The notes beneath the pieces are model-generated. The model was not told the origin of the DNA and did not search any database. It saw only the letters and a list, made by a program, of their open reading frames with translations. Of a DNA stretch of 64,000 bases, positions 1-48,062 are shown piece after piece. The stretch comes from an uncultured Gammaproteobacteria bacterium. GTDB taxonomy: Bacteria > Patescibacteriota > Microgenomatia > CAZXEC01. The translations under genes were made by a program, and so were the position numbers. The stretch's first letter is position 1. Each line of letters opens with the position of its first letter. Where the stretch lies: positions 326,903-390,902 of the forward strand of contig CAZXEC010000001.1 in assembly GCA_964639595.1 (NCBI GenBank), read 5' to 3'.

Positions 1-1
1 G

Positions 2-670
2 TGGGGAATTTTTTCAGGTATCACCACTAACCCACTAATTTTTCGTGAAGTTGCCTCGACAGAACCGTTGGCATATTATCAAAAAATAGCTCACCTTTTC
101 CCAAATGTTCCGGTGTCTATCCAGTTGCTGGAAGGGGATGTAGAAACACTAGTCAAACAAGGTAAGGCTTTTGCCGGACTTGCCCCCAATGTCGTTGTTA
201 AAGTTCCCATGTTTGGAGATGGCCGAGGCTTGACTGTTTTGACAGCCTTGACTCAAGAAGGTATCAAAGTTAATGTGACCGGGCTGATGAGTGCAGAACA
301 ATTACTACTGGCGCTGATAGCTAGTCCCGGGCCTTCTTATGTTTCTCTTTTTTTTAACAGGATAAAAGATGGTGGAGGTAATCCCCAAAAAGAAATTAGC
401 AACGCCAGAGAGCTAATTGAAAAAATAGGGTCAGCGGCCAAAATTATTGTCGGCTCAATCCGCAAAGGTGATGATGTTAGAGAAGGTATGGTCGCTGGTG
501 GCCATATAGTTACCGTAACACCGAAGGTCCTTGCCGTGATGGTCAATCATCCCAAGTCTGTGGAATTTATCACCCAATCTCAATCAGCTTGGGATGAGAT
601 TATGGGTTTGCGCAGAAGTAGGCCTCAAACAAGAACTCTACACCAAAGAGCTCCACGTTCTAAAAAATGA
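2..670 (+). CDS. Transaldolase / fructose-6-phosphate aldolase family (TalC/Fsa-like), 5'-truncated at the window edge
   Basis: The frame is open from base 2 with no stop upstream of the listed TTG at 68. GIFSGITTNPLIF matches the transaldolase GVTTNP motif, and YVSLFFNRI matches YVSPFVGRI. The size is right for the ~220 aa Fsa subfamily. The C-terminus carries an unusual basic extension. Confidence 0.8.
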   Translation, partial: WGIFSGITTNPLIFREVASTEPLAYYQKIAHLFPNVPVSIQLLEGDVETLVKQGKAFAGLAPNVVVKVPMFGDGRGLTVLTALTQEGIKVNVTGLMSAEQLLLALIASPGPSYVSLFFNRIKDGGGNPQKEISNARELIEKIGSAAKIIVGSIRKGDDVREGMVAGGHIVTVTPKVLAVMVNHPKSVEFITQSQSAWDEIMGLRRSRPQTRTLHQRAPRSKK

Positions 671-711
671 ATCTCTTTTAGTTCGTTGCTGCCCAAGTAA
701 AGGTTGAATTT

Positions 712-2978: not shown

Positions 2979-4588
2979 ACTACGGCGTTATTATCAAAGG
3001 TCTTGATATGTGTGAGGGGCGGCCCCACTTGAGATGGATCAAACATGAACAACAAGTCTTGTTCCTGAATGTCACGATCAACTAACACGTAATCAACCCC
3101 GAATTCCTTAATTTGCCTTACGACCACCTCGTACCCGTAGCCGGAAGTGGTATGAGGAAAATATATTATTTCGCCGTCGGCATACCAGGCGTAGCCTTCT
3201 CTTCTGGTCATGATCTTGGGTCTGTTGATGGTGGTATAGTTTTTGATCCATTCGCCCTGTTCTTTAATTTGAGGGATTGAAGACAGCGATGGTACGCCGG
3301 GTTTTAGATCACCATATATTAAAGCGATGTTATTCTTGGCAATTACAAAAATGATAACTATTATCACCAAAGGCTGCCAGATTATCTTCATGGGTTTTGG
3401 TAAAAACATGCCAGCTACTTGCCAGATGGCATATACTCCCCATCCCTGCAAGATTAAAAGTACTGGCATGAGCCATAATACGTACCTGTCAACTACGCCT
3501 TGGGAGATCATCATCAGAAGAATAAATTGCGGTAGGATGTTGGCCATCAAATAAATAGTAAATTTGTCTTTGATGACAATTAATGAGGCTACTGCTCCGA
3601 TTAGAATAAGGTATATATAAAAACCCTGGAAAAATTGGGAGAGTAACCTCATATTAGCTAAAAATTTATCCCAGGCGCTGGAGATTAAAGCATCCCTACC
3701 TTTCCATAGCTTGGAAGATAGTGAGACTCCGTAAAATTCAGAGTTGAGATTGGGGTGGTCTATTGACCAGGCATCTTGGGCCAGGTTAGAAGACCCATCA
3801 GATGTCACCGTGGTCACATGAGCCGGACCAAAAGCCAGTGCTGCTTTTACTGGTGACAAAACCGGCCGCTCCGCTCTAATTGATAATGTCCCCAAGTATG
3901 GAAGTAAAACAATATTGAAAATAAGGAACATGATCACTAAATTACGAATAACCCGGACCCCTTTTGTTTTTACGATGAAGAGTTGATATATAAAAAAGAG
4001 AACAAGAAAGGTATAAAAAATAGATTGCGTCTCTTGCCTGGTCCAGTAGGTTAAACCAAAGAAAGTTGGCGCCAGCAGCAGATAAAACCACTTTTTGCTT
4101 GTCAGAGCCAAGTATCCCAGAAAAAAAGAGCAATAAAGAAAAAAAACATATTGGTGCTCTGTGAGGGCAACAATAGATGATGTATGAAAAATAGGAAACG
4201 TGGCAATCATTATTGACATGATGAGGCCTATCTTCCAGGATGCGTACCTGGCGAAAAATATGTAGGTGGCGATAGGAAGCAAGAAGCTAAAAATTGCCGG
4301 GACCAGTCTGGCGGCAAATTCCCAATTATTAAAAAAGCTATAGGTAATAGCCATAACTAATGGGTATCCCCCTGGCCAATAGAGATGAACAATTTTGTAA
4401 TACTCGCCTTGCAAAAACCTTTTGGCCATGGTGGCATAGATGGCATCATCGCTGTAGAAAATAAGTTCTTGGGATTTGATAGCTGCTAATTTAATATCAA
4501 AAATCCAGATCGCCATTGCCGCCACAACGACAAATGACAAAAACGGCAGGATATTTTTTCTGATAAATACTTTTCTTAAAAATAACAT
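2933..4588 (-). CDS. GT-C fold membrane glycosyltransferase, ArnT/PMT-like (GT39/GT83-like)
   Basis: More than 10 predicted TM helices. The first extracytoplasmic loop carries YSDDAIY, analogous to the DExxY of ArnT, followed by a W-PGGYPL motif. A ~150 aa soluble C-terminal domain follows. It is a paralog of 28724..30328. Confidence 0.6.
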   Translation of the reverse strand: MLFLRKVFIRKNILPFLSFVVVAAMAIWIFDIKLAAIKSQELIFYSDDAIYATMAKRFLQGEYYKIVHLYWPGGYPLVMAITYSFFNNWEFAARLVPAIFSFLLPIATYIFFARYASWKIGLIMSIMIATFPIFHTSSIVALTEHQYVFFLYCSFFLGYLALTSKKWFYLLLAPTFFGLTYWTRQETQSIFYTFLVLFFIYQLFIVKTKGVRVIRNLVIMFLIFNIVLLPYLGTLSIRAERPVLSPVKAALAFGPAHVTTVTSDGSSNLAQDAWSIDHPNLNSEFYGVSLSSKLWKGRDALISSAWDKFLANMRLLSQFFQGFYIYLILIGAVASLIVIKDKFTIYLMANILPQFILLMMISQGVVDRYVLWLMPVLLILQGWGVYAIWQVAGMFLPKPMKIIWQPLVIIVIIFVIAKNNIALIYGDLKPGVPSLSSIPQIKEQGEWIKNYTTINRPKIMTRREGYAWYADGEIIYFPHTTSGYGYEVVVRQIKEFGVDYVLVDRDIQEQDLLFMFDPSQVGPPLTHIKTFDNNAVVYEIDKSWFEKPNEK

Positions 4589-4594
4589 GGATGA

Positions 4595-5473
4595 CTATTT
4601 CTTATACAATTTAGGTTTGTAGCCGATCGATACGGTTTGCAGGCTGAAGAATCTCATCAGACTGGAATGGTCAAGCAAGGTTGCAATAAAAACAAGAGGC
4701 CGAACAATCGCATTATCCCAAATAAACCTGTAAATACCGTAGATATTTTTCCATTCCATAAAAAGATCCATATATCTAACCAGACGGGGGAAAATGATCA
4801 TTCCAGTTATTTTAATATTAACAAATCCGGCATTTTCCAACCATTTCTTTTGCTCCCAAGGGAAAAAAGACGGTTCATAACTAGTAACATTTTTCAAAAC
4901 TCTGTTAAAAAGCTCATTAATAAAATATGCCAACCACATATCTAATTTGTTATTAACTCCACTGATAAAAATACCTCCTGGTGTTAAGACCCTGAATGCT
5001 TCTTTCACTGCCTGTTCATTTTCCCTAATATGCTCGATAGTACCATAGCTAAAAACAATATCGAAATAATTGTCCGGAAATGGTAACTGGCGGACATCAC
5101 CTATCAAAAATTTAGCAGTGTCGGTTTTCGATCTAAAGTTCCTTTTGGCTAGTCTGATTACTGCCGGTGAAATGTCTATTCCGTAGTAATCACATCCTTG
5201 TGATAAAAACCAATCTGCCAGTGTAGTTGTACTCATGGCTTCATTGTAAAGATCATATTTTAGGACTTTGAGGCCTGTTTTATGTGGTAGGTAAATTTTA
5301 AGTAACCTTACAATTGATTGGACGAAATATAAATCAGATAGGGTTGGTTTGGTGATGTGTTTATGGGGGCTATTTTTGACAACCTCATCCCATCTTTTGG
5401 CCAGTGTCCTATTAACCTCGTCCCAGTTATTGAAAAAATCTGACTTATTGTAGGTGCCTGTTTTTTTTGTCAT
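4595..5473 (-). CDS. Class I SAM-dependent methyltransferase
   Basis: Motif I is DYYGIDISPAVIRLAK, and the later LTPGGIFIS matches the Methyltransf_11/25 pattern. Confidence 0.7.
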   Translation of the reverse strand: MTKKTGTYNKSDFFNNWDEVNRTLAKRWDEVVKNSPHKHITKPTLSDLYFVQSIVRLLKIYLPHKTGLKVLKYDLYNEAMSTTTLADWFLSQGCDYYGIDISPAVIRLAKRNFRSKTDTAKFLIGDVRQLPFPDNYFDIVFSYGTIEHIRENEQAVKEAFRVLTPGGIFISGVNNKLDMWLAYFINELFNRVLKNVTSYEPSFFPWEQKKWLENAGFVNIKITGMIIFPRLVRYMDLFMEWKNIYGIYRFIWDNAIVRPLVFIATLLDHSSLMRFFSLQTVSIGYKPKLYKK

Positions 5474-5480
5474 GAGGGTA

Positions 5481-6791
5481 TTATAGTAAGAGCTTGTTCA
5501 GCAGATCGTTTGGTGTTTCGGCTTGCCTGATGATTTTTATTTGTTGATTGGAGCTGACGAAAACCACAACTGGTCTAAGAATTGTAAACTGGTTTGAACG
5601 TGTTAGAGAATAAGCCCCGGCATCTAAAACTAAAACTATATCTCCCACTGCCATTTCGGGTAATTTCTGATCTGTTGCCAAAACATCGGCAGTATTGAGT
5701 GTGGGCCCGGCGATGTTGTAGCGACGGGTAGGTTTTCGATGGGCTTTATTGGCAATAATAAATCCCCGCCTAATAAAAAATATACTCTCTGGTACCAAAT
5801 TAATTCCACCATCTATAAAAATCCAATCCTTTTTGACAGCCACTACTCGAGTTACCAAGATGCCAGTATCAGAAACTAAAAATCTTCCCGGTTCCAACAC
5901 TAACTCTATTTCAGGTAGGTGATAATTATTGAGCATTTCCCTGAATTTAGTTCCGATTTTTTTACCAAATTCTTCAATCGACGGGGCTTTACTGTATTGA
6001 GATATTCCAGCCTTGTTCAAGATGATATTTTGCAGTGAATAATAATTAAGGCTCTGTAATCCGTATCCGCCGCCGATATTGATAGTTTTAATACTAAGTC
6101 CTAACTGGTCTCTAAGTCTGGCTGCTAAGGTAACTAATCTTTCGATGGACTTTTGGTAGTAGGATGGATCGGTAATCATTGAGCCAATATGGCTGGAGAT
6201 AGCCATCGGTTGCACATGAGAATAGGAAAGAGCCTTGCTATAAGCATCAACCGCTTGGGAAATGGGAATTCCGAATTTACTGATATAACCCTCGATAAAG
6301 CTTTTTAATATTGACATTTTTAACTCTGGATAAATTCTAAAGCTGATGTTGACCTTAATGTCTAATTTTTGGGCAATTTTGGCAACTCTTGCCAAAAGAT
6401 CTAAAGAGTCCACATTAAAAACTGCAACTCCTTTTTTAATGCAGAAGGCAATTTCCTGATCGTTCCAAGCCGGGCCATCAATAATCAATTCAGAAGCATC
6501 AAAGCCTGCTTTTTGAGCAAGGAGTACCTCTAGTGCCGAAGCTATTTCTCCTCTGCTGCCTTGGGATCTGAGAGTCTTGAGTATTTGAGGTTCAAAATTA
6601 GTTTTTACCGAATAGTAGATGCTAGTTTTTCTGTAATATTTTTGGAAAGCGGCAGATAGTGCGTGGTAATTATCAATTAATCTTTTTTCGCTAAACAAAA
6701 AAAATGGAGTACCGAATTTCTTGATCAGCTTGTCTAGCGGAACGCCATCGAATTTAACCTTATCCTGCACCAAATTAACACCGCTGATCAT
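5481..6791 (-). CDS. Fold-type III PLP-dependent decarboxylase (Orn/DAP/Arg decarboxylase family), substrate unknown
   Basis: N-terminal TPFFLFSEKRL resembles TPLYVYD. The PLP-lysine motif YYSVKTN, the Gly-rich NIGGGYG and the C-terminal LEPGRFLV are all present. Confidence 0.75.
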   Translation of the reverse strand: MISGVNLVQDKVKFDGVPLDKLIKKFGTPFFLFSEKRLIDNYHALSAAFQKYYRKTSIYYSVKTNFEPQILKTLRSQGSRGEIASALEVLLAQKAGFDASELIIDGPAWNDQEIAFCIKKGVAVFNVDSLDLLARVAKIAQKLDIKVNISFRIYPELKMSILKSFIEGYISKFGIPISQAVDAYSKALSYSHVQPMAISSHIGSMITDPSYYQKSIERLVTLAARLRDQLGLSIKTINIGGGYGLQSLNYYSLQNIILNKAGISQYSKAPSIEEFGKKIGTKFREMLNNYHLPEIELVLEPGRFLVSDTGILVTRVVAVKKDWIFIDGGINLVPESIFFIRRGFIIANKAHRKPTRRYNIAGPTLNTADVLATDQKLPEMAVGDIVLVLDAGAYSLTRSNQFTILRPVVVFVSSNQQIKIIRQAETPNDLLNKLLL

Positions 6792-6805
6792 AGAATGGTA
6801 TTATA

Positions 6806-7795
6806 TCAGCTCGTTTTTAAGTAAGCAATCAAACTTTTTATGCCCTGGGCATAATTAACCTTGGGTGAAAAGTTAAGCTCCTTGGTTGCTTTGGTGATAT
6901 CGTAGTTCCAATTGTTGGCAATGGTTTTGACTTTCATGACCGTAATTGGTGGCTCCCGATAAAACAATTTAGGCCATAATCGGTGGCCTTGTAGATAAAT
7001 AAACTCAATAATATATGCAGCCAGGAGTGCAATCCTCTTGGGAATGTTCAGTGGCGAATAGTCGCTTCCTAACTCCCTGGCAATTATCTCTGCCAGTGAT
7101 TTAATCTGAATAGGTTTTGCCCCAGCTATGATATATATTTGGTTTACCCCTGCTTGTTTGATGACATGCAAAAAAGCTTCCACTAGGTCATCAATATAGA
7201 TCAAATGCAGTAGGTTACACCCATTGCCAATGATAAAAAATTGCCTCTTTCTTATCAGGTTGACCATTTTCATCACCATTCCTGTTTTATTATCACCTGG
7301 TCCGTAGACGATGCATGGTCTGATGATAGTAAATGGTATATGGTATTTTTGGTAAAGTTGTCTGCAAGTTTCCTCCAATTTTATTTTGGAAATTCCATAA
7401 ATGTCCGTTGCCGCCAGAGGATGTTTTTCATCAGCCGGCAAATATTGTAGATCTCCCATTGCATATACAGAACTGGTGATAATCAGGTGCTCAAGTTGGG
7501 AATTTTGGGTAATGATTTTTAGTAAAGACTGACTGTTGGTCGATGGTATTTTGCCATCAGGATCCCATGGTGATCTTTCTGCAGCTAGATGAATCAATAT
7601 CTGGCAAGAATTGAGATTTTTGATGAAAGTTTGCGGTCGATTAATATCACCAGTGATTATTTTTACACCCTTGGCTAACATATTACTTGCCAAAGGGTGC
7701 CTGGCTAGGACAGAAATTTCGTAGCCTTCTTGAGTTAGCCTTTTGATTAGATGTTGCCCGATAAAGCCTGTCGCACCTGTAATAAATATTCTCAT
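6806..7795 (-). CDS. NAD-dependent epimerase/dehydratase (extended SDR family)
   Basis: MRIFITGATGFIGQHL Rossmann motif. The start is set at the internal Met; the track ORF extends 12 codons further to 7831. It does not look like gmd. Confidence 0.7.
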   Translation of the reverse strand: MRIFITGATGFIGQHLIKRLTQEGYEISVLARHPLASNMLAKGVKIITGDINRPQTFIKNLNSCQILIHLAAERSPWDPDGKIPSTNSQSLLKIITQNSQLEHLIITSSVYAMGDLQYLPADEKHPLAATDIYGISKIKLEETCRQLYQKYHIPFTIIRPCIVYGPGDNKTGMVMKMVNLIRKRQFFIIGNGCNLLHLIYIDDLVEAFLHVIKQAGVNQIYIIAGAKPIQIKSLAEIIARELGSDYSPLNIPKRIALLAAYIIEFIYLQGHRLWPKLFYREPPITVMKVKTIANNWNYDITKATKELNFSPKVNYAQGIKSLIAYLKTS

Positions 7796-7875
7796 AGAAA
7801 GGATCGGATAAACAGACGGTAGCATAGACAACTGTCACAAGCAAGTCAATCTGTTGTAAAATGTCTTAAAATAAG

Positions 7876-10029
7876 ATGTTTGGTAAACAAGCAAAACTCG
7901 CGTCTGGTAATCTGGCTTTGGTTATAATACTATTTTTGGCCGCCCTGGTGAGGTTTTACGGCCTTTTTCCCAATACTCTTCTTCATCCTGATGAACCGCA
8001 TTTGCTCGCGTCAGGACAGAAAATTGCCAAAAATGTTTTAACTAATTTTGATTTCTCTGCCGATGTCTCGCAGTATCCTTATAAATACGGTTCCTCCATG
8101 TATTATCTGCATGGTGCGCTGCAGACAGGTGCGTTATTAGGTATTTATGCTTTGCATTCCTTGTTGCCTCATTTGTTGGAAAATTTTCCGCAAAAATCAG
8201 ATCTTTTGACTTTCTTGACTGACACAGGACTATATAATTACCAAAATTTGCTTTTGACCGAATCGCGGCTGGTGACCGCTTTATTTGGTATAGGAACAGT
8301 GCTGTTGACTTTTTTGATCGGCAGGAGATTATTTGGCTATCCAGTGGGTATTCTGGCTGCGCTTATATTAACATTTGCACCACTGCATGTACGAGATTCC
8401 CACTATGCCACCGTTGATATTCCGCAATTATTTTTCATTCTCTTATCAGTATTTTGGCTAATTAAAGTTTTTCAGACAGGTAAAACTAGATTCTATTTAT
8501 TGGCAGGCTTGACCATTGGTTTTGCCACTTCTTTGAAGTATTTCCCCATTGCTGTGTTGCTTTACCCCTTGGCGCATTTTTTGGGTGCTGGCCGGCAAAA
8601 ATTATTAGACCAAAAATTTTGGCTGGGATGGGCTATGATGCCCATTGGTTTTTTGGTCAGTTCACCTACTCTACCTTTCCATTTTGGAGATTTTTTGAAT
8701 ACCCTCATTATTAGCAGTCAATGGTATGCCCCAGGGGTGGTTTCTGCCAAAATCCACTGGTGGCAGTTTTTCATTCCCCCTTATGTTCATCCTTTTCATT
8801 GGTCATTTGTATTTTTTATCGGATTTGGGGTGATGCCAACATTGTTGGCTATTTGGGGATTTATTATTGCTTGGAAACAGCATCCCCGACCGATGCTTTT
8901 CTTATCAGTAGTGCCGGTTGTTAATTTTATCTTCATCACTTTTTATCTTAAAGAAATTTATGAAAGATTATCTTTGCCCAGCCTGCCATTTTTAGCATTA
9001 TTTGCCGGTTATGGCTTATGGCAGCTGGTGCGATGCGTCAAGCCGGACAAGTTGAAAGCGGTGGTATTAACGATGACACTGGGAGTTGTTTTGTTTTATC
9101 CGGCTCAAGAATCGATCTCTGCCAGCTGGGCTTGTTCTCAGGAGATTACCGATTATCAAGCCCGGGATTGGATCAAGGATAATATCGCACCGGGATCTAC
9201 TTTTGGTTTTTCTCCGGGTATGCGCATTCCAGAAACTGGTACCAAGCCAGTCAGAATGGATGTGACATCGATGTTCTCTTGGCCAGAAGCAGAGGAAGCA
9301 GGTGTGAATTTGGTGTTTTTTAATTCCGGTTATTATAATTATTATCAGTATTGGGCGCTTGATTATTTTAGTCGTCCAGAAGATCTTCTTGCCAACAGTT
9401 TTGTGGGAGCGGCACTTCGCCAGTATCAAACACAATCCCAGCTGGTTAAAAAATTTGTCAAGCCTTACACCTGCATGGGTAATGATATTTACGCCTATAG
9501 GCTGGCAAAACTTTTACAGCCCGGCAGTCGCCATTTGATTTATCAAGACTCTTGGGAAAAAAGCAGCCAGGAATGGCGGTTGGTGGAATTTCCTGTTTTT
9601 GGTCAACAACAAGCTCTTTTGAGTACCAATTCTAATGATTTAGTGTTTACTTGGCAACGTGGCGCTGACAAGATGTGGGAAAAGAATAGCTATCCCACGC
9701 CGCGAGCAGTGGTTGGCCCCTTCCCGGTTACACCGGGCAAGATGTATTTTTTACAAGCTCGACTGTCATCAGGTAAAGAAATTCCTAAAGAAAAACGTGA
9801 TGGCTTCTTTAGAATAGATTTCTATAAACAGCGAAGTATTGGTAACAAGCCAGGTTTTGATGTTGCTTTATCTGGGCGCTATTGGGGTCAGGGAGAAAAA
9901 ACTGTCCAAACCCAAGCAGTTGCTCCACCTGGCGCTGTTTTTGCCACCCTGTCTTTTCAGACAACAATGGTAGAAGAAAAAGGTGATTTTCGCATAAGCC
10001 AAGTGCAATTTTTCCAAATGGAAGACTAA
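7876..10029 (+). CDS. GT-C membrane glycosyltransferase (PMT_2/ArnT-like) with a C-terminal CBM-like beta-sandwich domain
   Basis: LHPDEPHLL acidic loop motif, HVRDSHYATVDIPQLFF, and more than 10 TM helices. The ~200 aa C-terminus (WVK..FFRIDFYKQ..ATLSF..QVQFF) resembles a CBM4/9-type domain. Paralog of 10807..12996. Confidence 0.6.
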   Translation: MFGKQAKLASGNLALVIILFLAALVRFYGLFPNTLLHPDEPHLLASGQKIAKNVLTNFDFSADVSQYPYKYGSSMYYLHGALQTGALLGIYALHSLLPHLLENFPQKSDLLTFLTDTGLYNYQNLLLTESRLVTALFGIGTVLLTFLIGRRLFGYPVGILAALILTFAPLHVRDSHYATVDIPQLFFILLSVFWLIKVFQTGKTRFYLLAGLTIGFATSLKYFPIAVLLYPLAHFLGAGRQKLLDQKFWLGWAMMPIGFLVSSPTLPFHFGDFLNTLIISSQWYAPGVVSAKIHWWQFFIPPYVHPFHWSFVFFIGFGVMPTLLAIWGFIIAWKQHPRPMLFLSVVPVVNFIFITFYLKEIYERLSLPSLPFLALFAGYGLWQLVRCVKPDKLKAVVLTMTLGVVLFYPAQESISASWACSQEITDYQARDWIKDNIAPGSTFGFSPGMRIPETGTKPVRMDVTSMFSWPEAEEAGVNLVFFNSGYYNYYQYWALDYFSRPEDLLANSFVGAALRQYQTQSQLVKKFVKPYTCMGNDIYAYRLAKLLQPGSRHLIYQDSWEKSSQEWRLVEFPVFGQQQALLSTNSNDLVFTWQRGADKMWEKNSYPTPRAVVGPFPVTPGKMYFLQARLSSGKEIPKEKRDGFFRIDFYKQRSIGNKPGFDVALSGRYWGQGEKTVQTQAVAPPGAVFATLSFQTTMVEEKGDFRISQVQFFQMED

Positions 10030-10778
10030 TGTCTAATAAACTTGCAGTTTACGATCGAAATCAACATGAACAGGAGTTTTTTGATCAGCTGGCAAAAGAT
10101 AATTGTGAATACTGGGGTTGCCAAACAAAGGCCGGTTGCTATCGGATGGAGATGAGAGCGCAACTGGCCCAGCGATTCTTGGGGTTGTGTCCGGGGATGA
10201 AAATATTGGATCTAGGGTGCGGGTTAGGCGCCTTTACTCAATATTTGTTACCGTATGCTGCCACCATCTATGCTATTGATATTTCCTCTGCCACCATCGC
10301 CCAAGTTAAGATGAGAATTTCATCACTGAATGTTATCTTTTCTGTCCAAGATGCCCATCACTTAAGCTTTGCAGATAATTTTTTTGATGCGGTGGTAGGG
10401 AATGCGACCCTGCATCATCTGGATTTATCTTGCGCTTTGCTAGAAATTCAGCGAGTGGTCAAACCGCATGGTCAGATATTTTTTACCGAGCCAAATATGG
10501 CAAATCCACAAAATTGGCTTGAGAGACATGTTAGATTTATTGGTAAACTCATGCGCAACTCGCCGGATGAAACTGCTTTTTATCGCTGGCAATTGAAAAA
10601 AAAATTGAAGGCGGCAGGTTTTATCAATGTATCAGCTGAACCATTTGATTTTATCTATCCGGCGATCCCTGAAGCCTGGATTGGTCCGGTAAAAAAGATG
10701 TCGGATTTCTTAGAGAAAATTCCTTTGTTGAGAGAAATTGCCGGTTCACTGTTGATAACCGGACAAAAAGAGCGGTAA
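10029..10778 (+). CDS. Class I SAM-dependent methyltransferase
   Basis: ILDLGCGLGAF motif I and VKPHGQIFFTEPN. Confidence 0.75.
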   Translation: MSNKLAVYDRNQHEQEFFDQLAKDNCEYWGCQTKAGCYRMEMRAQLAQRFLGLCPGMKILDLGCGLGAFTQYLLPYAATIYAIDISSATIAQVKMRISSLNVIFSVQDAHHLSFADNFFDAVVGNATLHHLDLSCALLEIQRVVKPHGQIFFTEPNMANPQNWLERHVRFIGKLMRNSPDETAFYRWQLKKKLKAAGFINVSAEPFDFIYPAIPEAWIGPVKKMSDFLEKIPLLREIAGSLLITGQKER

Positions 10779-10806
10779 TAATTTACAAGAAGAGCAGGTC
10801 AATACA

Positions 10807-12996
10807 ATGGCAAAATTATCGAATGGAAAAAAGAAATTCTGGACCTTCCTAAAATACCACTGGATGCTGATTAGCATTCTTATTTTGGCTGGCATTCTCC
10901 GCCTTATCGGCCTTTTCCCGAATACTCTCTTACATCAAGACGAACCAGCTCTTTTGGGTCCTTCCCAAAAACTGCTGGAGCAAATCTTATTCCAAGCTAA
11001 TTTTGATCCCAACATTCCCCCCCAACCTTTCAAGTATGGCTCTTTTCTCTATTATCTGCATGCTCTAATTCATGGGGTAGTACTATCAGTTATCTATTTA
11101 TATGAACTGGCATTGCATAAGCTGACGATTTATTCTGCGATGTATAAAGACCAGGTTGATTATTGGCAATTTATTACTAATACGGGACTAGCCAATTATC
11201 GTGATGTCTTGTTATGGTTTGATCGGGCCTCCGGGGCGCTGTTTGGCGTTGCTAGCGTTTGGCTCACCTATTTGATAGGGAAGCAGCTGTTCTGTCAACG
11301 ACTGGGACTTTTGGCAGCATTACTTTTAGCAGTTAACCCCCTCCATGTTCGCGAATCTCATTATGCCACAGTTGACGTTCCCCAGCTATTTTTTATTTTG
11401 CTGTCTTTCCTGTTTTCATTTTTTGTGTTGAAGAAACCTAGTGTCAAGTGGTTTGCCTGGGCTGGTTTTATGGCGGGATTCACCACTTCCATAAAATATT
11501 TCCCCTTGGCACTGTTGCCGCTTTTTTTCTTTCATTTACTCAATATAAAAAAACCTCAAGATATCTATCAGATAGCGAGAAATTTAGTTGTTTCTCTTGT
11601 TTTTGTCTGGTTAGGTTTTTGGGCAGGATCGCCATATTTACCGTTTCATTTTAAAGAAGTTACAGAAATTTTACAGATACATGCTAATTACTACGGTTCA
11701 GATAAATATAATCAACCGAATCTGATCACCAATTTCCTGCCGACCAGTGCCCATTTCTTCCATATCGGGTTTCTGATTGATGAAGCTTATCTGGCCCTGC
11801 CACTTGCAGCTACCATAGTTGGAGTTGTGATGAGTATTTTATCTTTTGGCCGTTTGGCAATTACTCTTTTGGTTATTCCTCTGGTTAACTTTCTGATTAT
11901 TTTTGGCTATGTGGCTCCCATTTATGAGAGATTGCTTTTGCCTGGTATTCCCTTTATGGCCCTATTCAACGCTGTCTTTTTAGATAAAGCTCTTGGCTGG
12001 TTAAGATTGAAGTTTACCGTTACTGGTTTGGTGATGGGCTTGTTATTGATCGTAGCGACTATTGGGCCTTCACTTCAAAAGTCCCTGGCAGCCAGCCTAG
12101 CCTGTGGTCAACCAATTGCCGACTATGCGGCCCGTGATTGGATCAAACAGCATTTTGCTCTCGGAACCAGATTAGCTTATCAACCAGGGATACGCATCCC
12201 GGAAATTGGTCTGGATTTAATCCGATCAGAGATAGCAACCAGTTTTTCTTTAATGGAATTGCAAGAACAACCAGCCGAATATCTGATTATTACTTCGGGT
12301 TACTTAGATCGCTTTAAGGAATGGGCGGCTGATTTTCCAGTGACTCCGGTTGAGGAGATCAACAATCTCTATCCGGTTTTAGTTTTCCAAGAATACCAAA
12401 AAACAACCCAGCTAGTGCAGGAGTTTGTCAAACCATCCCTGTGTGTAGATAACCGGATTTACATTTTTAAATTATTTCCCATTTTAGGAAGAGTCAATAA
12501 TAAAATCAAGCAGTTTTCATTTATGGAAGCAGGCGAACTTTCAGATTGGCGCTTGGTATCTTGGCCAAGTAGCAGACAGCACGCGGTGATCAGTTTTGTT
12601 GCCAGAGGACATGATGGTGCCGGCGCCTTGCGTTATCATTTTCCTCACTCGAATCTGAATCCTACTGATTTAGTTGTTGCCGAACCGATTTTTTCTCCCA
12701 TGATGGAAATAACAGGGGGCGCCAGATACAGTGCTTCTGCCTGGGTAAAGCCTGAAGTGGTACTATCGGATAGTATCTCTGATGGCTTTGTCAGATTAGA
12801 TTTTTATGATCAGCTACAAGGGCAACCTATTGCGACTGCCTTGTCTTCAAGGGCTCGGCCAAATTCTCAATGGCAGGAATTAGTGGTAACAGCCACCGCT
12901 CCCAAAGGAGCCAGATTCGCCACTGTCGGATTTGGCAGTTTTAATCCGTATCAAGCGGGCAGTTTTTTGATTGATGAGGTAAAATTAGCTAATTAG
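10807..12996 (+). CDS. GT-C membrane glycosyltransferase (PMT_2/ArnT-like) with a C-terminal CBM-like domain; paralog of 7876..10029
   Basis: LHQDEPALL and HVRESHYATVDVPQLFF are conserved with the upstream paralog. The C-terminus reads AWVK..FVRLDFYDQ..ATVGF..IDEVKL. Confidence 0.6.
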   Translation: MAKLSNGKKKFWTFLKYHWMLISILILAGILRLIGLFPNTLLHQDEPALLGPSQKLLEQILFQANFDPNIPPQPFKYGSFLYYLHALIHGVVLSVIYLYELALHKLTIYSAMYKDQVDYWQFITNTGLANYRDVLLWFDRASGALFGVASVWLTYLIGKQLFCQRLGLLAALLLAVNPLHVRESHYATVDVPQLFFILLSFLFSFFVLKKPSVKWFAWAGFMAGFTTSIKYFPLALLPLFFFHLLNIKKPQDIYQIARNLVVSLVFVWLGFWAGSPYLPFHFKEVTEILQIHANYYGSDKYNQPNLITNFLPTSAHFFHIGFLIDEAYLALPLAATIVGVVMSILSFGRLAITLLVIPLVNFLIIFGYVAPIYERLLLPGIPFMALFNAVFLDKALGWLRLKFTVTGLVMGLLLIVATIGPSLQKSLAASLACGQPIADYAARDWIKQHFALGTRLAYQPGIRIPEIGLDLIRSEIATSFSLMELQEQPAEYLIITSGYLDRFKEWAADFPVTPVEEINNLYPVLVFQEYQKTTQLVQEFVKPSLCVDNRIYIFKLFPILGRVNNKIKQFSFMEAGELSDWRLVSWPSSRQHAVISFVARGHDGAGALRYHFPHSNLNPTDLVVAEPIFSPMMEITGGARYSASAWVKPEVVLSDSISDGFVRLDFYDQLQGQPIATALSSRARPNSQWQELVVTATAPKGARFATVGFGSFNPYQAGSFLIDEVKLAN

Positions 12997-13002
12997 AGAC
13001 TA

Positions 13003-13857
13003 ATGATTTCTATTATTGTCAGTACTAAAAATGAAGAAAAAAACCTGGAGAGGCTGCTTGCCAGTATTAAAAACCAGACCTACCAGGATTGGGAAGTTAT
13101 AGTGGTGGATAATAATTCTTCTGATCAAACCAAAGCAATTGCCCAGAAGTACACCCCTTTGGTTTTCAATTATGGTCCGGAAAGATCGGCCCAGAGAAAT
13201 TTTGGAGCAAAACAAGCCAGAGGCGAGTACGTCTTAATTTTAGATGCTGATATGGAACTGGAGGAAAATGTTTTGGCAGAGTGTGCAGAGGTAGTTGGCT
13301 CCGATAAATCCCGATTTAATCGGGATAAAATCGGAGTTGACAAAACTTCTACCTTAAAAGCCCTGATTGTTCCGGAAAGGTCGACATCGCAAAATTTTTG
13401 GGGCCGCTGCAAAGCGTACGAAAGGTCATTTTATGTGGGAGACGAGACCATTGAGGCGGCCCGTTTTTTCAACAGGCAAATTTTTGACCAACTGGGTGGT
13501 TATGACACTGCCATGACCGGGCCGGAAGATTATGACCTGTCGTATCGGGTCAGGCAAAAATATCAGATAGGGAGAATCGGCTCTTTTATCATTCATCATG
13601 AAGGAGCGCCTAGTTTATGGCAATTGATGAAGAAAAAGTTTTATTATGCTAAACATGCCAAGGCCTATTACGCAAAATACCCTGGTTTAAGATTATCCCA
13701 GGGCAACCTGCTGCTGCGTCCGGCTTTTATTAGAGGATGGATGAAACTGATTTCTCATCCGGTCTTGACCCTCGGTCTGGTGATCATGCGTAGTTGCGAG
13801 ACAGCAGGAGCCCTGGCGGGGTTTTTGCTAAGTGGTACAGTTAAGATGAAGAATTAA
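13003..13857 (+). CDS. Glycosyltransferase family 2
   Basis: ISIIVSTKNEEKNL..VIVVDNNSSD and a DAD (DXD) motif. Confidence 0.75.
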   Translation: MISIIVSTKNEEKNLERLLASIKNQTYQDWEVIVVDNNSSDQTKAIAQKYTPLVFNYGPERSAQRNFGAKQARGEYVLILDADMELEENVLAECAEVVGSDKSRFNRDKIGVDKTSTLKALIVPERSTSQNFWGRCKAYERSFYVGDETIEAARFFNRQIFDQLGGYDTAMTGPEDYDLSYRVRQKYQIGRIGSFIIHHEGAPSLWQLMKKKFYYAKHAKAYYAKYPGLRLSQGNLLLRPAFIRGWMKLISHPVLTLGLVIMRSCETAGALAGFLLSGTVKMKN

Positions 13858-14785
13858 GGAATTGTCTCAGTAATTGTCTCCTGAAGGTACTCGTATCATG
13901 GGGTACTAGCGGTGCGCTGGCTATTTCACCATCGTACTCGACGACAAATCGGGTCCATTCGTCAGCCGGCACTTCTCCATCTGGCCAAGCTAGCAGATCT
14001 TCAATTGGTACCGCCAGCATGACACTATTTTCTTTATGGTCAACAGCCTTTTTCCATGATTCAATCAGAACACTTGGGTCTGCTACTACTTCTGTGACAT
14101 GGATCCAGCAAGTATAGGCAAAGGGTTTTTCAGCGCCGATGGCCAGCAATCTGGTGGTGCCTGCTTTGGGCTCCAGACCAAACTCTTCCTTCAGACCTCG
14201 ATGAACCGTAGCAAAAGAACTGGCATCTTCAGGCTCCATTTGCTCCTCGAAGGAGAGAGAATATCTGCCTGGATGAAAATCTTGCCCTTGGGCCCGTAAG
14301 GAGATAATAACACTACGCTGGTATCGGTCGAAAATAGCTTCTTGGAATAGCACAATATTATGGGTAGAAATTCCCACCGGCACTTCTGTTTGCCTGAATC
14401 TGGTAATTTCTTCCCGGCTGCGCATATGCAAATCAGGGGCTGCCTGATCAATACCCCTGATGGTAAAGTAGTCGCTTATGCCCAGTGTAACTCTAAGATG
14501 ATCGGGTGTGGCGGCGATGCTTCTGACTGTGACTTTGGGGTCATTCCAGACATTGGGTCCTGTTCTTTCTTGGGTTTTGTTAAAAGCTTGGGCCAAACCC
14601 TGCCTCATCCATTCTGGCGCCTGGGCTACCAGTTCCGGGTGGCCGGAGACGGTCTTTGAATCTGGGCTTTGAAAAAATTCTACTTGTTCGGAAGATAAAC
14701 CCTGAGGCCAGGCAGCAATCTCGATGGTGGTGCCGATTTCCCTGAAAGGGTATTCCGGACGGTGACCTAAATCCTCTCTTGTCAT
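13841..14785 (-). CDS. Hypothetical protein, compositionally atypical (GC ~50%); possible degenerate Nudix box
   Basis: A 314 aa ORF fills an otherwise gene-free gap, with ATG at 14785 and a TATAAT -10 upstream on the minus strand. RGLKEEFGL resembles the Nudix REUxEExGU, but the preceding spacing is inexact. No other recognisable motifs. Confidence 0.45.
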   Translation of the reverse strand: MTREDLGHRPEYPFREIGTTIEIAAWPQGLSSEQVEFFQSPDSKTVSGHPELVAQAPEWMRQGLAQAFNKTQERTGPNVWNDPKVTVRSIAATPDHLRVTLGISDYFTIRGIDQAAPDLHMRSREEITRFRQTEVPVGISTHNIVLFQEAIFDRYQRSVIISLRAQGQDFHPGRYSLSFEEQMEPEDASSFATVHRGLKEEFGLEPKAGTTRLLAIGAEKPFAYTCWIHVTEVVADPSVLIESWKKAVDHKENSVMLAVPIEDLLAWPDGEVPADEWTRFVVEYDGEIASAPLVPHDTSTFRRQLLRQFLNSSS

Positions 14786-14818
14786 ACAAACGGCATTCTA
14801 ACATTATAGGTTTTGCAT

Positions 14819-14845
14819 GTCAACCCCGACCTAATCGGGGTTGAC
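14819..14845. promoter_or_regulatory. Perfect 11-bp inverted repeat (GTCAACCCCGA-cctaa-TCGGGGTTGAC) in a divergent intergenic region; candidate operator
   Basis: Read directly from the sequence. It lies between the divergent starts at 14785 (minus) and 14897 (plus). No T-run follows, so it is not an intrinsic terminator. Its outward ends read TTGAC. Confidence 0.4.
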
Positions 14846-14856
14846 TCATCCGTAGG

Positions 14857-15910
<1,054 letters not shown>

Positions 15911-15912
15911 AC

Positions 15913-17070
15913 ATGAAGAATTTTAAAAAAATGAGGGTGGTGATTGCCACTCATGAGGCCACCACTGGCCCTGCCCATGATGTGAGAGATTTTCTCAAAG
16001 ATAAAGTAGCAGAGCTGTTATTTATTGCCCACCCGCTGTTGTTTATTCCGGCAAATTATAAAAGGAGTTCCTATTATGAAAAATACTTGCCGGGTAAACC
16101 GGTTAAAAGATCTCAAGCCAGACATTGGCAAGGGCCTGAAGTAATGCTGTATGTGAAGGATCTGATCTATACCATCTTTTGGACCATTCGCAACGGCGGT
16201 GCCGATATTTTTATCGGCTCCGGCAACTTGAGCGCTTTTGCCGGAGTGATCTTAAAAAAATTAAGAGTAGTTGACAAAGTGGTTTTTTATTGCATTGATT
16301 ATGTGCCGGAAAGATTTGCCAACCCGCATGTTAACCGGCTGTACCATTGGGTGGACAGGCTGGCTTGCGCCGGTGCTGATATAACTTGGAACTTATCTCC
16401 CCGGATGGCCGATGGTAGAAATAGCAGGTGGGAAAGATCTCTGGGCAGGCAAGTGACCTTACCGATCGGTGTTCATTTTAACCGGATTCATCGGCTGCCT
16501 TTGGATCAAATCCATCATGCGGAAATTGTTTATTTGGGGACTCTTTTGGAAAAACAAGGTGTGCAGTTGGTGATTGGAGCGTTAACTAAAATTGCCAGCC
16601 AGATCCCCAATTTACATTTTCTGGTGATTGGCTCCGGGCCGTATGAAGAGCAGCTCAAAGAATTAACCAAGCAAAAAGGAGTTGAAGCGCTGGTGACATT
16701 TGCCGGATATGTTGAAGATCACCAGCAGGTGGAAGAGATGATGGCCAGAGGAGCAGTGGCAGTGGCTCTTTACAACAAAGAAGTAGATCAATTCAGCTAT
16801 TACGCCGACCCCAGCAAGGTGAAAAATTATTTAGCGGCCGGCCTACCGGTTATCATTACCGATGTACCATATATTGCCCAGGAGATTGTCCAAAAAAAAG
16901 CCGGAATAATAGTAGAATACCAGGAAGAACAAATGGTTGATGCCATACTTGGCTTGTTGAAAGATCCCAGAGAGTTAGCAAAGTATCGGCAGAATGCTGT
17001 TAATTTTGCGCGAGATTTTGATTGGGATGTACTGTTGACGAAAGCATTTGCCGAGCTGGTAAAAAACTAA
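15913..17070 (+). CDS. Glycosyltransferase family 4 (GT-B fold)
   Basis: C-terminal GT4 pattern VIGSGPYEEQLKEL...FAGYV...E...AAGLPVIITD. Confidence 0.7.
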   Translation: MKNFKKMRVVIATHEATTGPAHDVRDFLKDKVAELLFIAHPLLFIPANYKRSSYYEKYLPGKPVKRSQARHWQGPEVMLYVKDLIYTIFWTIRNGGADIFIGSGNLSAFAGVILKKLRVVDKVVFYCIDYVPERFANPHVNRLYHWVDRLACAGADITWNLSPRMADGRNSRWERSLGRQVTLPIGVHFNRIHRLPLDQIHHAEIVYLGTLLEKQGVQLVIGALTKIASQIPNLHFLVIGSGPYEEQLKELTKQKGVEALVTFAGYVEDHQQVEEMMARGAVAVALYNKEVDQFSYYADPSKVKNYLAAGLPVIITDVPYIAQEIVQKKAGIIVEYQEEQMVDAILGLLKDPRELAKYRQNAVNFARDFDWDVLLTKAFAELVKN

Positions 17071-17078
17071 AAATAGAT

Positions 17079-17837
17079 ATGACAAAAAGTAAAAAATTAA
17101 GTTCTACAAAATATCAAACAACATCGCCAACAAAAACAAACCATAACTTCTATCAGCAGATAAGGGATCTCTATGCAATGATAAAGCAAGCCCCGGATAC
17201 TGCCAATCAGGAGCTTAATCAGGAACATATCAGCCTGGCGCAGGACTATCGCCGGAACTTTTATAGCTATTTTGGCGGACTGAAACACTTTAAAAATAAA
17301 AATGTTTTGGAAATTGGTTGCGGTTATGGGGGAGACAGCGCTCTCATTGCCGAAGTGGCTAAAAAAGTAGTCGGTACTGATCTTAACAAGGATCAACGTT
17401 GGGAAATTTGGCAGAAAACCAATATGATATTTGCCAAAGAAAATGCCCAGAGTTTGTCATTTGCCAGCCAGAGTTTTGATGTAGTTTGTGCCCGTGATGT
17501 TTTGCATCATGTCGATTACCCATCACTGGCTATCAAAGAGATGGGTCGGGTTGTCAAAAAAGGCGGCAAGATAATTATTATTGAAGCCAACAGATACAAC
17601 CCCATATTTTATTTACATTTAACATGTCTTTTAGGGCATGATCATTTTACCCAAAACAAATTTATGGAGTTGGTCAGAAATAATTTTGACCAAGTGGAAT
17701 TTTTCTTTGTAGAAAGTCACTTCTTACCGATCAGAAACAAAATCTTCAGGTGGTGGTGGAATAGTGTTTGGAGTCTGGCTAACTTATTTCTGCCATCTTT
17801 TCTAAAATCATATAATGTAGCAGTAGCAACCAGATGA
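17079..17837 (+). CDS. Class I SAM-dependent methyltransferase
   Basis: VLEIGCGYGGDS motif I and VKKGGKIIIIEAN. The start is moved to the ATG at 17079; the track ORF begins inside the upstream gene. Confidence 0.7.
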   Translation: MTKSKKLSSTKYQTTSPTKTNHNFYQQIRDLYAMIKQAPDTANQELNQEHISLAQDYRRNFYSYFGGLKHFKNKNVLEIGCGYGGDSALIAEVAKKVVGTDLNKDQRWEIWQKTNMIFAKENAQSLSFASQSFDVVCARDVLHHVDYPSLAIKEMGRVVKKGGKIIIIEANRYNPIFYLHLTCLLGHDHFTQNKFMELVRNNFDQVEFFFVESHFLPIRNKIFRWWWNSVWSLANLFLPSFLKSYNVAVATR

Positions 17838-20669: not shown

Positions 20670-20670
20670 A

Positions 20671-40455: not shown

Positions 40456-40462
40456 CAGGAGT

Positions 40463-48046: not shown

Positions 48047-48062
48047 TAAGTTCGTTTTCCAG

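What the first reader, a model, noticed from the sequence alone, without database searches (positions are those of the whole stretch)
7876..12996. Paralog pair of PMT/ArnT-like GT-C enzymes with C-terminal CBM-like beta-sandwich domains, separated by a methyltransferase
Both proteins (717 and 729 aa) share LH(P/Q)DEP and HVR(D/E)SHYATVD(I/V)PQLFF. Each ends in a ~180 aa soluble domain whose pattern resembles CBM4/9-type carbohydrate-binding modules: (A)WVK... F(F/V)R(I/L)DFY(K/D)Q ... A(T/TV)(L/G)(S/F)F ... (I/L)(S/D)(Q/E)V(Q/K)(F/L). This is a second way lectin-like domains are appended to GT-C enzymes in this locus. A methyltransferase (10029..10778) lies between them, with a 1-nt stop/start overlap.
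Basis: partly seen in the sequence, partly recalled or inferred. Interest (0 to 1): 0.55.

Follow-up and report, generated by a model that had tools for sequence, protein, structure and literature searches.

The report
Membrane glycosyltransferase pair with sugar-binding tails
Two related membrane sugar-transferring enzymes in an uncultured Daviesbacteria genome each end in a divergent carbohydrate-binding module, and they sit with a methyltransferase in a strain-variable slot of a large surface-sugar gene cluster; this is a new variant of a design already known from mycobacterial and enterobacterial enzymes.

Summary
ORFs 7876-10029 (A, 717 aa) and 10807-12996 (B, 729 aa) are full-length paralogues (35% identity, E 7e-109). 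A class-I SAM methyltransferase (10029-10778) lies between them, and its ATG shares one base with A's TAA stop.

The N-terminal ~420 residues are a GT-C fold with a PMT_2/ArnT-like core and an intact H-x-D-E loop. The last ~165 residues are a beta jelly roll homologous to Pfam CBM_4_9. Pfam does not detect this in A or B directly. Four independent lines show it: transitive profile hits, 12 of 46 relatives hitting CBM_4_9, hhalign probability 98.3%, and Foldseek hits to CBM22/16/4/6/70.

New findings:
- The architecture defines a large uncharacterised family. All three named members are Microgenomates (CPR).
- The gene pair lies in a replaced cassette. Flanking genes are 75-90% identical to a related contig, but the GT-C-CBM genes only 36-41%.
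- Methyltransferase adjacency is enriched (odds ratio 3.2).
- GT-C-CBM tandem pairs arose at least twice.
- Some relatives are fused to a DPM1/ArnC-type GT2, which implies a polyprenyl-phosphate-sugar donor.

GT-C enzymes with an acceptor-binding CBM are already known (EmbA/B/C, AftD, GT136 ORF12), so this is a new variant of a known kind. Carbohydrate binding, donor and acceptor are inferred, not tested.

The parts
7876..10029 (+). Gene A: GT-C glycosyltransferase with C-terminal CBM (717 aa)
   Evidence: ORF; Pfam PMT_2/PMT; AF2 model pLDDT 93; Foldseek GT-C hits
7876..9135 (+). A, residues 1-420: polytopic GT-C membrane core
   Evidence: Helical bundle in the model; Pmt1/ArnT profile hits at positions 118-393
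7981..7998 (+). A, L36-P41 (LHPDEP): first extracytoplasmic loop with the putative catalytic D39-E40
   Evidence: Among 90 family members H is kept in 75, D in 79 and E in 86; the position corresponds to the DE/acidic motif of GT-C enzymes (established knowledge)
9148..9510 (+). A, residues ~425-545: alpha/beta extracytoplasmic domain after the last TM helix
   Evidence: Secondary structure of the model; 38.5% identical between A and B
9523..10026 (+). A, residues ~550-717: divergent CBM_4_9-type beta jelly roll
   Evidence: domain HMM E 2.5e-39 at residues 551-716
10029..10778 (+). Class-I SAM-dependent methyltransferase; its start overlaps A's stop by 1 nt; no TM segment or signal peptide evident in the sequence
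   Evidence: Pfam Methyltransf_11 E 1.4e-22; overlap TAATG; methyltransferase adjacency enriched in 33 related loci
10807..12996 (+). Gene B: GT-C glycosyltransferase with C-terminal CBM (729 aa); positional and closest counterpart of the single-copy gene P0002 in L001
10930..10947 (+). B, L42-P47 (LHQDEP): catalytic loop, D45-E46
12496..12990 (+). B, residues ~564-728: CBM_4_9-type jelly roll
   Evidence: Domain HMM E 2.4e-44; family-level evidence as for A
13003..13857 (+). GT2 glycosyltransferase 6 nt downstream of B; 75.5% identical to the GT2 that follows P0002 in L001
7814..7976 (+). Conserved 5' segment (intergenic region plus the first ~33 codons of A), 83% identical to the 5' end of P0002 in L001; contains a weak promoter-like site at 7834-7862
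   Evidence: blastn; promoter scan
7977..13023 (+). Variable cassette (body of A, methyltransferase, B) that replaces about 2.07 kb in L001
   Evidence: No DNA similarity except the catalytic-motif patches; proteins 36-41% identical against 75-90% for the flanks
4593..7813 (-). Inserted module absent from L001: methyltransferase, LysA-like PLP decarboxylase, NAD epimerase

Best explanation
A and B are two paralogous extracytoplasmic GT-C glycosyltransferases of a Candidatus Daviesbacteria (Patescibacteria/CPR) cell-surface glycan locus. Shown: each has a PMT_2/ArnT-like polytopic core with an intact H-x-D-E first loop, then an alpha/beta domain, then a C-terminal beta jelly roll that is a divergent homologue of CBM_4_9 modules. 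Inferred mechanism: a cytoplasmic DPM1/ArnC-type GT2 loads a sugar onto a polyprenyl phosphate, and the lipid-linked sugar is flipped across the membrane. Each GT-C then transfers it to a growing surface glycan outside the cell. The tethered CBM holds or selects that acceptor polymer, as in EmbC, AftD and the GT136 enzyme ORF12. The two paralogues most likely add different residues or linkages, or recognise different acceptor epitopes, because their CBMs are the most diverged part (25% identity). The methyltransferase, translationally coupled to A, probably O-methylates a sugar of the same glycan on the cytoplasmic side. The three genes form a cassette that has been exchanged between otherwise closely related genomes, so they probably specify a strain-variable (serotype-like) feature of the glycan.
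For: GT-C identity. Intact near-invariant residues in both copies. CBM_4_9 homology. Extracytoplasmic position of the C-terminal region is inferred from near-full-length structural alignment (640-740 alignment columns) with STT3/AglB/ArnT, whose C-terminal domains are extracytoplasmic. Lipid-phosphate-sugar donor: relatives P0004, P0083 and L096 are fused to a GT2 closest to dolichol-P-mannose synthase 5mlz (8e-13), ArnC and GtrB, and the window encodes two such GT2s at 30380-31303 and 31971-32678. Glycan locus context. Cassette: flanks are 83-84.5% identical at DNA level and 75-90% at protein level to L001, but the GT-C-CBM genes only 36-41%, with sharp breakpoints. Methyltransferase link: 17 of 54 adjacent slots against 18 of 145 others, OR 3.2, p 0.002, and the same GT-C-CBM | MT | GT-C-CBM order in L081. 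Precedent for an acceptor-binding CBM on GT-C enzymes: PMC11127046 and bioRxiv 10.1101/2019.12.22.885152.
Against: No ligand, donor or acceptor was tested. Pfam CBM_4_9 does not hit A or B themselves. Structural matches to CBMs have modest TM-scores (0.4-0.5), and the high-confidence model also matches non-lectin jelly rolls such as Eph LBD, MAM and Cry. No GtrA-type flippase was found in the window, and the polyprenyl-P-type GT2s are about 17 kb away; the adjacent GT2 looks like an ordinary polysaccharide GT2. The adjacent methyltransferases are not one orthologous group. The loci in the enrichment test are not phylogenetically independent. In GT136 ORF12 the CBM was dispensable under the conditions tested.
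Confidence: 0.62

Rival explanations
1. A and B are bacterial protein O-mannosyltransferases (true GT39 enzymes, as the public annotation says). They glycosylate secreted or S-layer proteins, and the C-terminal jelly roll binds the protein or glycoprotein substrate rather than a polysaccharide.
For: NCBI names them 'glycosyltransferase family 39 protein'. Pfam PMT is above threshold. The best PDB sequence hit is Pmt1. The DE motif is typical of PMTs. The jelly roll also resembles the protein-binding Eph LBD and MAM domains.
Against: The NCBIfam Pmt equivalog scores 28 bits against a cut-off of 800. The Pfam match covers only about 120-145 residues of the core. ArnT and STT3 are equally close or closer structurally. 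The C-terminal domain is specifically homologous to CBM_4_9. The context is a polysaccharide-type locus with a Wzx-like flippase, many GTs and sugar-nucleotide enzymes.
Confidence: 0.15
2. The C-terminal beta-sandwich has lost sugar binding. It serves as a structural spacer or ruler, or as a protein-protein interaction or dimerisation module. For example, it could mediate an A-B heterodimer like Pmt1-Pmt2 or EmbA-EmbB.
For: A and B fall below Pfam's CBM_4_9 threshold. One CBM-like domain of AftD is thought not to bind sugar. The conserved R-x-D-F-Y strand aligns with a generic core strand of CBM_4_9. Tandem pairs recur.
Against: The domain is conserved across hundreds of representatives with polar/aromatic near-invariant residues (R646, D648, Y650, Y624). 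Most family members occur as single genes, so a heterodimer cannot be the general role. Homologous modules in other proteins occur in typical glycan-binding architectures such as GH5+CBM_4_9 and tandem CBM arrays.
Confidence: 0.15
3. The pair is a recent, redundant tandem duplication with no functional differentiation, or one copy is decaying.
For: Adjacent paralogues on the same strand.
Against: They share only 35% identity. B is closer to P0002 of another genome (42%) than to A. Both keep nearly all invariant residues. DNA similarity between the copies is limited to the catalytic-motif patch.
Confidence: 0.03

Closest known systems
GT136 ORF12 of Citrobacter youngae O1/O2 (three-component periplasmic pentofuranosylation; Kelly et al. 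2024, PMC11127046)
   Same: A polytopic GT-C core followed by a C-terminal beta-rich CBM that binds the unmodified acceptor polysaccharide. It uses a polyprenyl-phosphate monosaccharide donor made by a dedicated synthase. It is a serotype-determining add-on to a glycan locus.
   Different: A different GT-C sequence family: here the core is PMT_2/ArnT-like, and no sequence comparison with GT136 was possible. The CBM here is CBM_4_9-type, with an extra alpha/beta domain before it. The host is a CPR bacterium without LPS. No dedicated small flippase was found nearby. The genes occur as a pair with an intervening methyltransferase.
Mycobacterial arabinosyltransferases EmbA/B/C and AftD
   Same: GT-C enzymes with extracytoplasmic CBM-type beta-sandwiches that bind the acceptor glycan. 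EmbA-EmbB act as a paralogue heterodimer. They appear among the Foldseek hits. An AftD-like GT-C is also present in this window at 48124-51267.
   Different: Emb and AftD are much larger (over 1000 aa) with two or three CBMs of other types, and AftD has C-terminal TM helices. A and B do not match the AftD Pfam model. The Foldseek E-values for Emb (4e-6 to 1e-3) are weaker than for STT3 and ArnT.
Protein O-mannosyltransferases (GT39; Pmt1/Pmt2, Pmt4, bacterial Pmt)
   Same: The best sequence-level relatives of the membrane core (Pmt1 1e-8). They share the DE motif in loop 1. They carry a lectin-like domain (MIR beta-trefoil in eukaryotes) on the extracytoplasmic side. They work as paralogue heterodimers.
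   Different: A and B have no MIR domain. Their lectin-like domain is a C-terminal jelly roll rather than an insert in loop 5. The NCBIfam Pmt equivalog is far below threshold (28 against 800 bits). The context suggests a glycan rather than a protein acceptor.
ArnT (GT83) and Gtr-type O-antigen glucosyltransferases
   Same: The PMT_2 superfamily core (ArnT 3e-5 by profile, 2e-7 by Foldseek). They use an undecaprenyl-phosphate monosaccharide donor supplied by an ArnC/GtrB-type GT2. Gtr enzymes are serotype-converting.
   Different: ArnT and Gtr enzymes lack a CBM. ArnT's acceptor is lipid A, which CPR bacteria are not expected to make.
CBM_4_9 modules (CAZy CBM4, 9, 16, 22) of glycoside hydrolases
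   Same: Homologous beta jelly roll (hhalign 98.3%). They share the C-terminal signature W..(V/I)....AP.ga.....f.......f..DD(v/i).
   Different: Here the module is attached to a membrane glycosyltransferase rather than a hydrolase. It is too divergent for the Pfam model to detect in A and B. The ligand is unknown.

Membership tests
GT-C superfamily (GT-C-A fold) | Polytopic membrane domain with the GT-C helix arrangement | tested here: met
   AF2 model pLDDT 93, pTM 0.93. Foldseek hits to STT3, AglB, ArnT, ALG12, PglB, Pmt4 and Emb at E 4e-9 to 1e-5.
GT-C superfamily (GT-C-A fold) | Acidic catalytic motif in the first extracytoplasmic loop | tested here: met
   H37-x-D39-E40 in A and H43-x-D45-E46 in B. 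E is conserved in 86 of 90 and D in 79 of 90 family members.
GT-C superfamily (GT-C-A fold) | Polyprenyl-phosphate-linked sugar donor | not testable with these tools
   Indirect only: relatives are fused to a DPM1/ArnC/GtrB-type GT2, and two such GT2s lie in the window.
GT39 / protein O-mannosyltransferase | Pfam PMT or PMT_2 above the gathering score | tested here: met
   A: PMT_2 55.9 bits (cut-off 26.1), PMT 51.5 bits (cut-off 22.7). B: 53.3 and 37.7 bits. Only the central part of the models is covered.
GT39 / protein O-mannosyltransferase | NCBIfam equivalog NF058602 (bacterial Pmt) above its cut-off | tested here: not met
   28 bits against a cut-off of 800.
GT39 / protein O-mannosyltransferase | MIR beta-trefoil domain in loop 5 (eukaryotic PMTs) | tested here: not met
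   No MIR hit in Pfam, and the model shows no such insert.
GT39 / protein O-mannosyltransferase | Ser/Thr protein acceptor | not testable with these tools
   -
GT83 / ArnT | Full-length sequence and fold similarity to ArnT | tested here: inconclusive
   Profile hit to 5ezm at E 3.4e-5 over positions 123-393. Foldseek E 1.9e-7, TM 0.36-0.46. No NCBIfam ArnT hit.
Pfam CBM_4_9 (PF02018; CAZy CBM4/9/16/22) | Direct match of the Pfam model | tested here: not met
   No hit in A, B or their last 179-198 residues, even at E up to 1.
Pfam CBM_4_9 (PF02018; CAZy CBM4/9/16/22) | Homology at family or profile level | tested here: met
   12 of 46 family C-terminal domains hit CBM_4_9, best E 1.2e-5. hhalign 98.3%, E 1.6e-14 over 133 columns. 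Profile hits to CBM_4_9 tandem arrays. The profile hits CBM22 of 2w5f at E 6e-4.
Pfam CBM_4_9 (PF02018; CAZy CBM4/9/16/22) | Beta jelly-roll sandwich fold | tested here: met
   All-beta models. Foldseek top hits CBM70, CBM22, CBM16, CBM4-2 and CBM6.
Pfam CBM_4_9 (PF02018; CAZy CBM4/9/16/22) | Carbohydrate binding | not testable with these tools
No binding data exist.
Three-component extracytoplasmic glycosylation system (GtrA/GtrB/Gtr-type; GT136 system) | GT-C transferase | tested here: met
   See above.
Three-component extracytoplasmic glycosylation system (GtrA/GtrB/Gtr-type; GT136 system) | Polyprenyl-phosphate sugar synthase encoded with it | tested here: inconclusive
   Present in the window at 30380-31303 and 31971-32678, but about 17 kb away. 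The adjacent GT2 (13003-13857) is of generic polysaccharide type. Direct fusions exist in relatives.
Three-component extracytoplasmic glycosylation system (GtrA/GtrB/Gtr-type; GT136 system) | Dedicated small flippase (GtrA-like) | tested here: not met
   No Pfam hit in four small ORFs tested: 28300-28626, 41566-41961, 51248-51607 and 41772-42233. Only a Wzx-like MOP protein was found, at 54443-55696.

The most novel reading that the evidence does not exclude
GT-C-CBM tandem pairs with an intervening methyltransferase form a functional unit. The two paralogues would work as an obligate heterodimer, as Pmt1-Pmt2 and EmbA-EmbB do, and their CBMs would read a methylated glycan epitope produced by the coupled methyltransferase, as the Wzt CBM reads the methyl cap of O9a antigen. 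The exchangeable cassette would then set a strain-specific surface glycan that governs host attachment or phage susceptibility of these episymbiotic CPR bacteria.
Probability: 0.15. Interest if true: 0.65.

Novelty: new variant of a known kind. Interest (0 to 1): 0.42.

Why it matters
CPR/Patescibacteria have tiny genomes and live attached to host cells, yet this 64-kb window devotes about eleven polytopic GT-C-like enzymes to extracytoplasmic glycan assembly. Recognising the C-terminal domain as a CBM_4_9 homologue gives a testable handle on what these enzymes bind, because an isolated soluble domain can be used in glycan arrays. It also adds a large PMT_2-type family to the short list of GT-C enzymes with acceptor-binding modules (Emb, AftD, GT136). 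The cassette-like replacement suggests serotype-style surface variation in an uncultured lineage. The practical annotation point is that 'glycosyltransferase family 39 protein' is probably misleading for this family.

Tried and rejected
- The word-indexed search with the C-terminal-domain alignment found only 2 proteins. The exhaustive profile search was needed.
With A1 it used a generic GT-C motif and returned mostly CBM-less GT-Cs; only L003 was full-length.
- The cluster look-up gave few names, so the taxonomic range rests on three named members.
- The weak NCBIfam hit of B to a GTA/phage head spike fibre domain (E 0.013) was treated as generic jelly-roll similarity.
- I looked for repeats or mobile-element marks around the cassette and for terminators. 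None exceeded chance.
- I looked for a GtrA-like flippase and found none.
- I tested whether the adjacent GT2 (13003-13857) is the fused-type donor synthase. It is not the best match.
- I considered a recent tandem duplication and rejected it.
- Model coordinates are not exposed to scripts, so conserved residues could not be mapped onto the CBM surface or measured against the active site.

Full report
**1. Observation**

A and B align over their whole length at 35% identity, E 7e-109. The quoted motifs are present, except that 'WVK' occurs only in B. The stop/start overlap is TAATG, with TAA at 10027-10029 and ATG at 10029-10031. The gaps are -1 nt (A to methyltransferase), 28 nt (methyltransferase to B) and 6 nt (B to the next GT2). 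No intrinsic-terminator signal exceeds chance, so an operon A-MT-B-GT2 is likely; this is an inference. The proteins are identical to records named 'glycosyltransferase family 39 protein [Candidatus Daviesbacteria bacterium]' on a 458-kb contig.

**2. The membrane part**

- Pfam PMT_2 and PMT match residues ~120-265 above their gathering scores.
- NCBIfam's bacterial Pmt equivalog is far below threshold, at 28 against 800 bits.
- Single sequences find nothing in the PDB. A 90-member family profile hits yeast Pmt1 (1e-8), ArnT (3e-5) and Pmt4.
- An AlphaFold2 model of A built on that alignment is very confident (pLDDT 93, pTM 0.93). Its best structural neighbours are STT3/AglB, ArnT, ALG12, PglB, Pmt4 and EmbA/B/C.
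- The first-loop motif H-x-D-E, the invariant R131 (R140 in B), S175, D181 and the other near-invariant residues are retained in both A and B, so both look catalytically competent.

A and B are therefore GT-C enzymes with a PMT_2/ArnT-like core. They are not demonstrable orthologues of protein O-mannosyltransferases.

**3. The C-terminal part**

After the last TM helix (~residue 420) the model shows an alpha/beta domain (~425-545) and then a beta-sandwich (~550-717). Pfam finds nothing there in A or B. Four independent lines identify it as a divergent CBM_4_9-type module:

- **(a) Exhaustive profile search.** A six-sequence domain profile returned 571 proteins at E ≤ 1e-3. Most are 700-770 aa with the domain at the C-terminus. 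The list also includes giant proteins with 3-9 tandem copies. All eight of those tested are Pfam CBM_4_9 proteins, and the profile's matches fall in their repeat arrays.
- **(b) Individual scans.** Of 46 family C-terminal domains scanned one by one, 12 hit CBM_4_9 (best E 1.2e-5). Three hit the related CBM_4_9_1. No unrelated family is hit by more than one member.
- **(c) Profile-profile comparison.** hhalign against Pfam-delimited CBM_4_9 segments gives 98.3% probability, E 1.6e-14 over 133 columns.
- **(d) Structures.** The profile hits the CBM22-bearing xylanase Xyn10B (2w5f) at E 6e-4 to 2e-3. Foldseek of a domain-only model ranks CBM70, CBM22, CBM16, CBM4-2 and CBM6 at the top, with E 3e-5 to 1e-3 and TM 0.4-0.5.

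The high-confidence full-length model additionally matches the Eph-LBD, MAM and Cry jelly rolls. The fold is therefore secure, but sugar binding is an inference from homology. Near-invariant residues in the domain are Y624, R646, D648, F649, Y650, S666 and P684 in A numbering. In the window, only A and B carry this domain.

**4. The family and its context**

Among the 150 best profile hits plus the six seed sequences, 90 share the GT-C + CBM architecture. Named members come from Candidatus Daviesbacteria, Roizmanbacteria and Levyibacteriota, all Microgenomates/CPR. Wider taxonomy could not be established.

Some relatives (P0004, P0083, L096) are fused at the N-terminus to a GT2. That GT2's best matches are dolichol-phosphate mannose synthase (5mlz, 8e-13), ArnC, GtrB and AglJ. 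This Rosetta-stone link implies a polyprenyl-phosphate monosaccharide donor. The window encodes two GT2s of that type, at 30380-31303 and 31971-32678. The GT2 next to B is of a generic polysaccharide type. No GtrA-like flippase was found, but a Wzx-like MOP protein is present.

The window as a whole is a large glycan locus. It holds sugar-nucleotide enzymes, GT2 and GT4 transferases, carbamoyltransferases, many methyltransferases and about eleven polytopic GT-C-like proteins. Three of these carry F5/8-type-C domains and one is AftD-like.

**5. A variable cassette**

A contig from another metagenome (L001, carrying P0002) is collinear with the window.

| Window segment | Relation to L001 |
|---|---|
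| 1-4592 | 84.5% identical DNA; flanking proteins 75-90% identical |
| 13024-23011 | 83% identical DNA; flanking proteins 75-90% identical |
| 7814-7976 (upstream region plus first ~33 codons of A) | 83% identical to the 5' end of P0002 |
| 7977-13023 (body of A, methyltransferase, B) | Replaces about 2.07 kb; no DNA similarity apart from short catalytic-motif patches |
| 4593-7813 (methyltransferase, LysA-like PLP decarboxylase, epimerase) | No counterpart |

L001 has one GT-C-CBM gene where the window has A, the methyltransferase and B. That gene is only 41% identical to B and 36% to A.

B is nearer to P0002 than to A in every domain and shares its position next to the GT2. A branches more deeply. 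The pair is therefore not a recent duplication. It is part of an exchanged, divergent allele of a slot in a conserved locus, the pattern seen in serotype-determining regions. No repeats or mobile-element marks flank it.

**6. Recurrence of the arrangement**

A degenerate DNA pattern for DGF-x-R-x-DFY retrieved metagenomic loci, 33 of which carry true GT-C-CBM genes.

- A class-I methyltransferase is the immediate neighbour in 15 of the 33 loci. That is 17 of 54 adjacent slots against 18 of 145 other genes (odds ratio 3.2, Fisher p 0.002). The loci are not independent and the methyltransferases are not one orthologous group.
- L081 repeats the exact order GT-C-CBM | MT | GT-C-CBM on one strand. 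L140 has two adjacent GT-C-CBM genes.
- In a tree, the first genes of the L081 and L140 pairs cluster together. Their second genes fall in a separate sub-clade, far from the clade that holds A, B and P0002. Tandem pairs therefore arose at least twice, and one of them is old.

**7. Mechanism and comparison**

The best-supported reading is an extracytoplasmic glycan-modifying or glycan-elongating GT-C. Its tethered CBM binds the acceptor polymer. Its donor is a polyprenyl-phosphate sugar. Methylation of the same glycan is encoded alongside.

This design is already documented for EmbA/B/C and AftD, and for the GT136 enzyme ORF12, whose C-terminal CBM binds the unmodified O-polysaccharide within a three-component system.

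What differs here:
- the GT-C family (PMT_2-type);
- the CBM type (CBM_4_9);
- the additional alpha/beta domain;
- the CPR host;
- the paired genes with a coupled methyltransferase;
- the cassette behaviour.

Hence 'new variant of a known kind'.

The main rivals cannot be excluded without experiments. They are a true protein O-mannosyltransferase, and a C-terminal domain that does not bind sugar and serves instead as a spacer or dimerisation module. A redundant recent duplication is contradicted by the data.

**8. Verdict**

The finding is a sound annotation advance with some added biology: a large unrecognised family, a variable cassette, and recurrent pairing with methyltransferases. The underlying principle is known and function is untested. 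Interest is 0.42.

Noticed in passing
window 4593-7813 (minus strand): A methyltransferase (4595-5473), a LysA-like PLP-dependent decarboxylase (5481-6791; 277 bits against the lysA cut-off of 298) and an NAD epimerase (6806-7831) form a block. It is absent from the otherwise collinear contig L001 and lies directly beside the variable GT-C-CBM cassette.
   Followed up: partly
window 34865-54439: Six large polytopic proteins (890-1047 aa) lie in a row. Three are paralogues with F5/8-type-C (discoidin) domains (34865, 37597, 42301; 31-44% identical). One is an AftD-like GT-C (48124-51267), and 45077-48046 is its homologue. 51767-54439 has no family hit. With the five PMT_2-type genes this makes about eleven GT-C-like membrane proteins in 64 kb of a CPR genome.
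   Followed up: partly
relatives P0095-P0225 (alignment A3/A4), beyond the end of the CBM: 54 of 90 family members carry a 20-50-aa tail after the CBM. The tail has a conserved ending such as ..IPYI.PTIP...LYPNS(I/F)L or ..L(F/Y)P(F/Y)S.GNL. A and B lack it. Its function is unknown.
   Followed up: no
P0004, P0083, L096 816-4205: These are fusion proteins of about 1120 aa: an unassigned ~150-aa N-terminal region, then a DPM1/ArnC/GtrB-type GT2, then GT-C and CBM. In effect a donor synthase and the transferase sit in one polypeptide.
   Followed up: partly
window 13841-14785 (minus strand): A 314-aa ORF with no Pfam or NCBIfam hit is 75% conserved and syntenic in L001. It sits between the GT2 and an epimerase.
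   Followed up: no
window 17834-19636 and 26597-28303: Two NodU/CmcH-type carbamoyltransferases lie in the same locus, which suggests carbamoylated sugars. At least eight class-I methyltransferases are spread over the window.
   Followed up: no
proteins P0122, P0140, P0162, P0180 and others: The domain profile also finds giant proteins of 1000-4250 aa with 3-9 tandem CBM_4_9 copies. One has an LPXTG anchor, and one has a peptidase M15 domain plus FG-GAP repeats. Their origin and their relation to the GT-C family were not examined.
   Followed up: no
L081 1494-6657; L140 1283-5544: Independent tandem pairs of GT-C-CBM genes occur in a distant clade. L081 has an intervening methyltransferase, exactly as in the window. 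The first genes of the two pairs cluster together, and the second genes fall in a separate sub-clade.
   Followed up: partly
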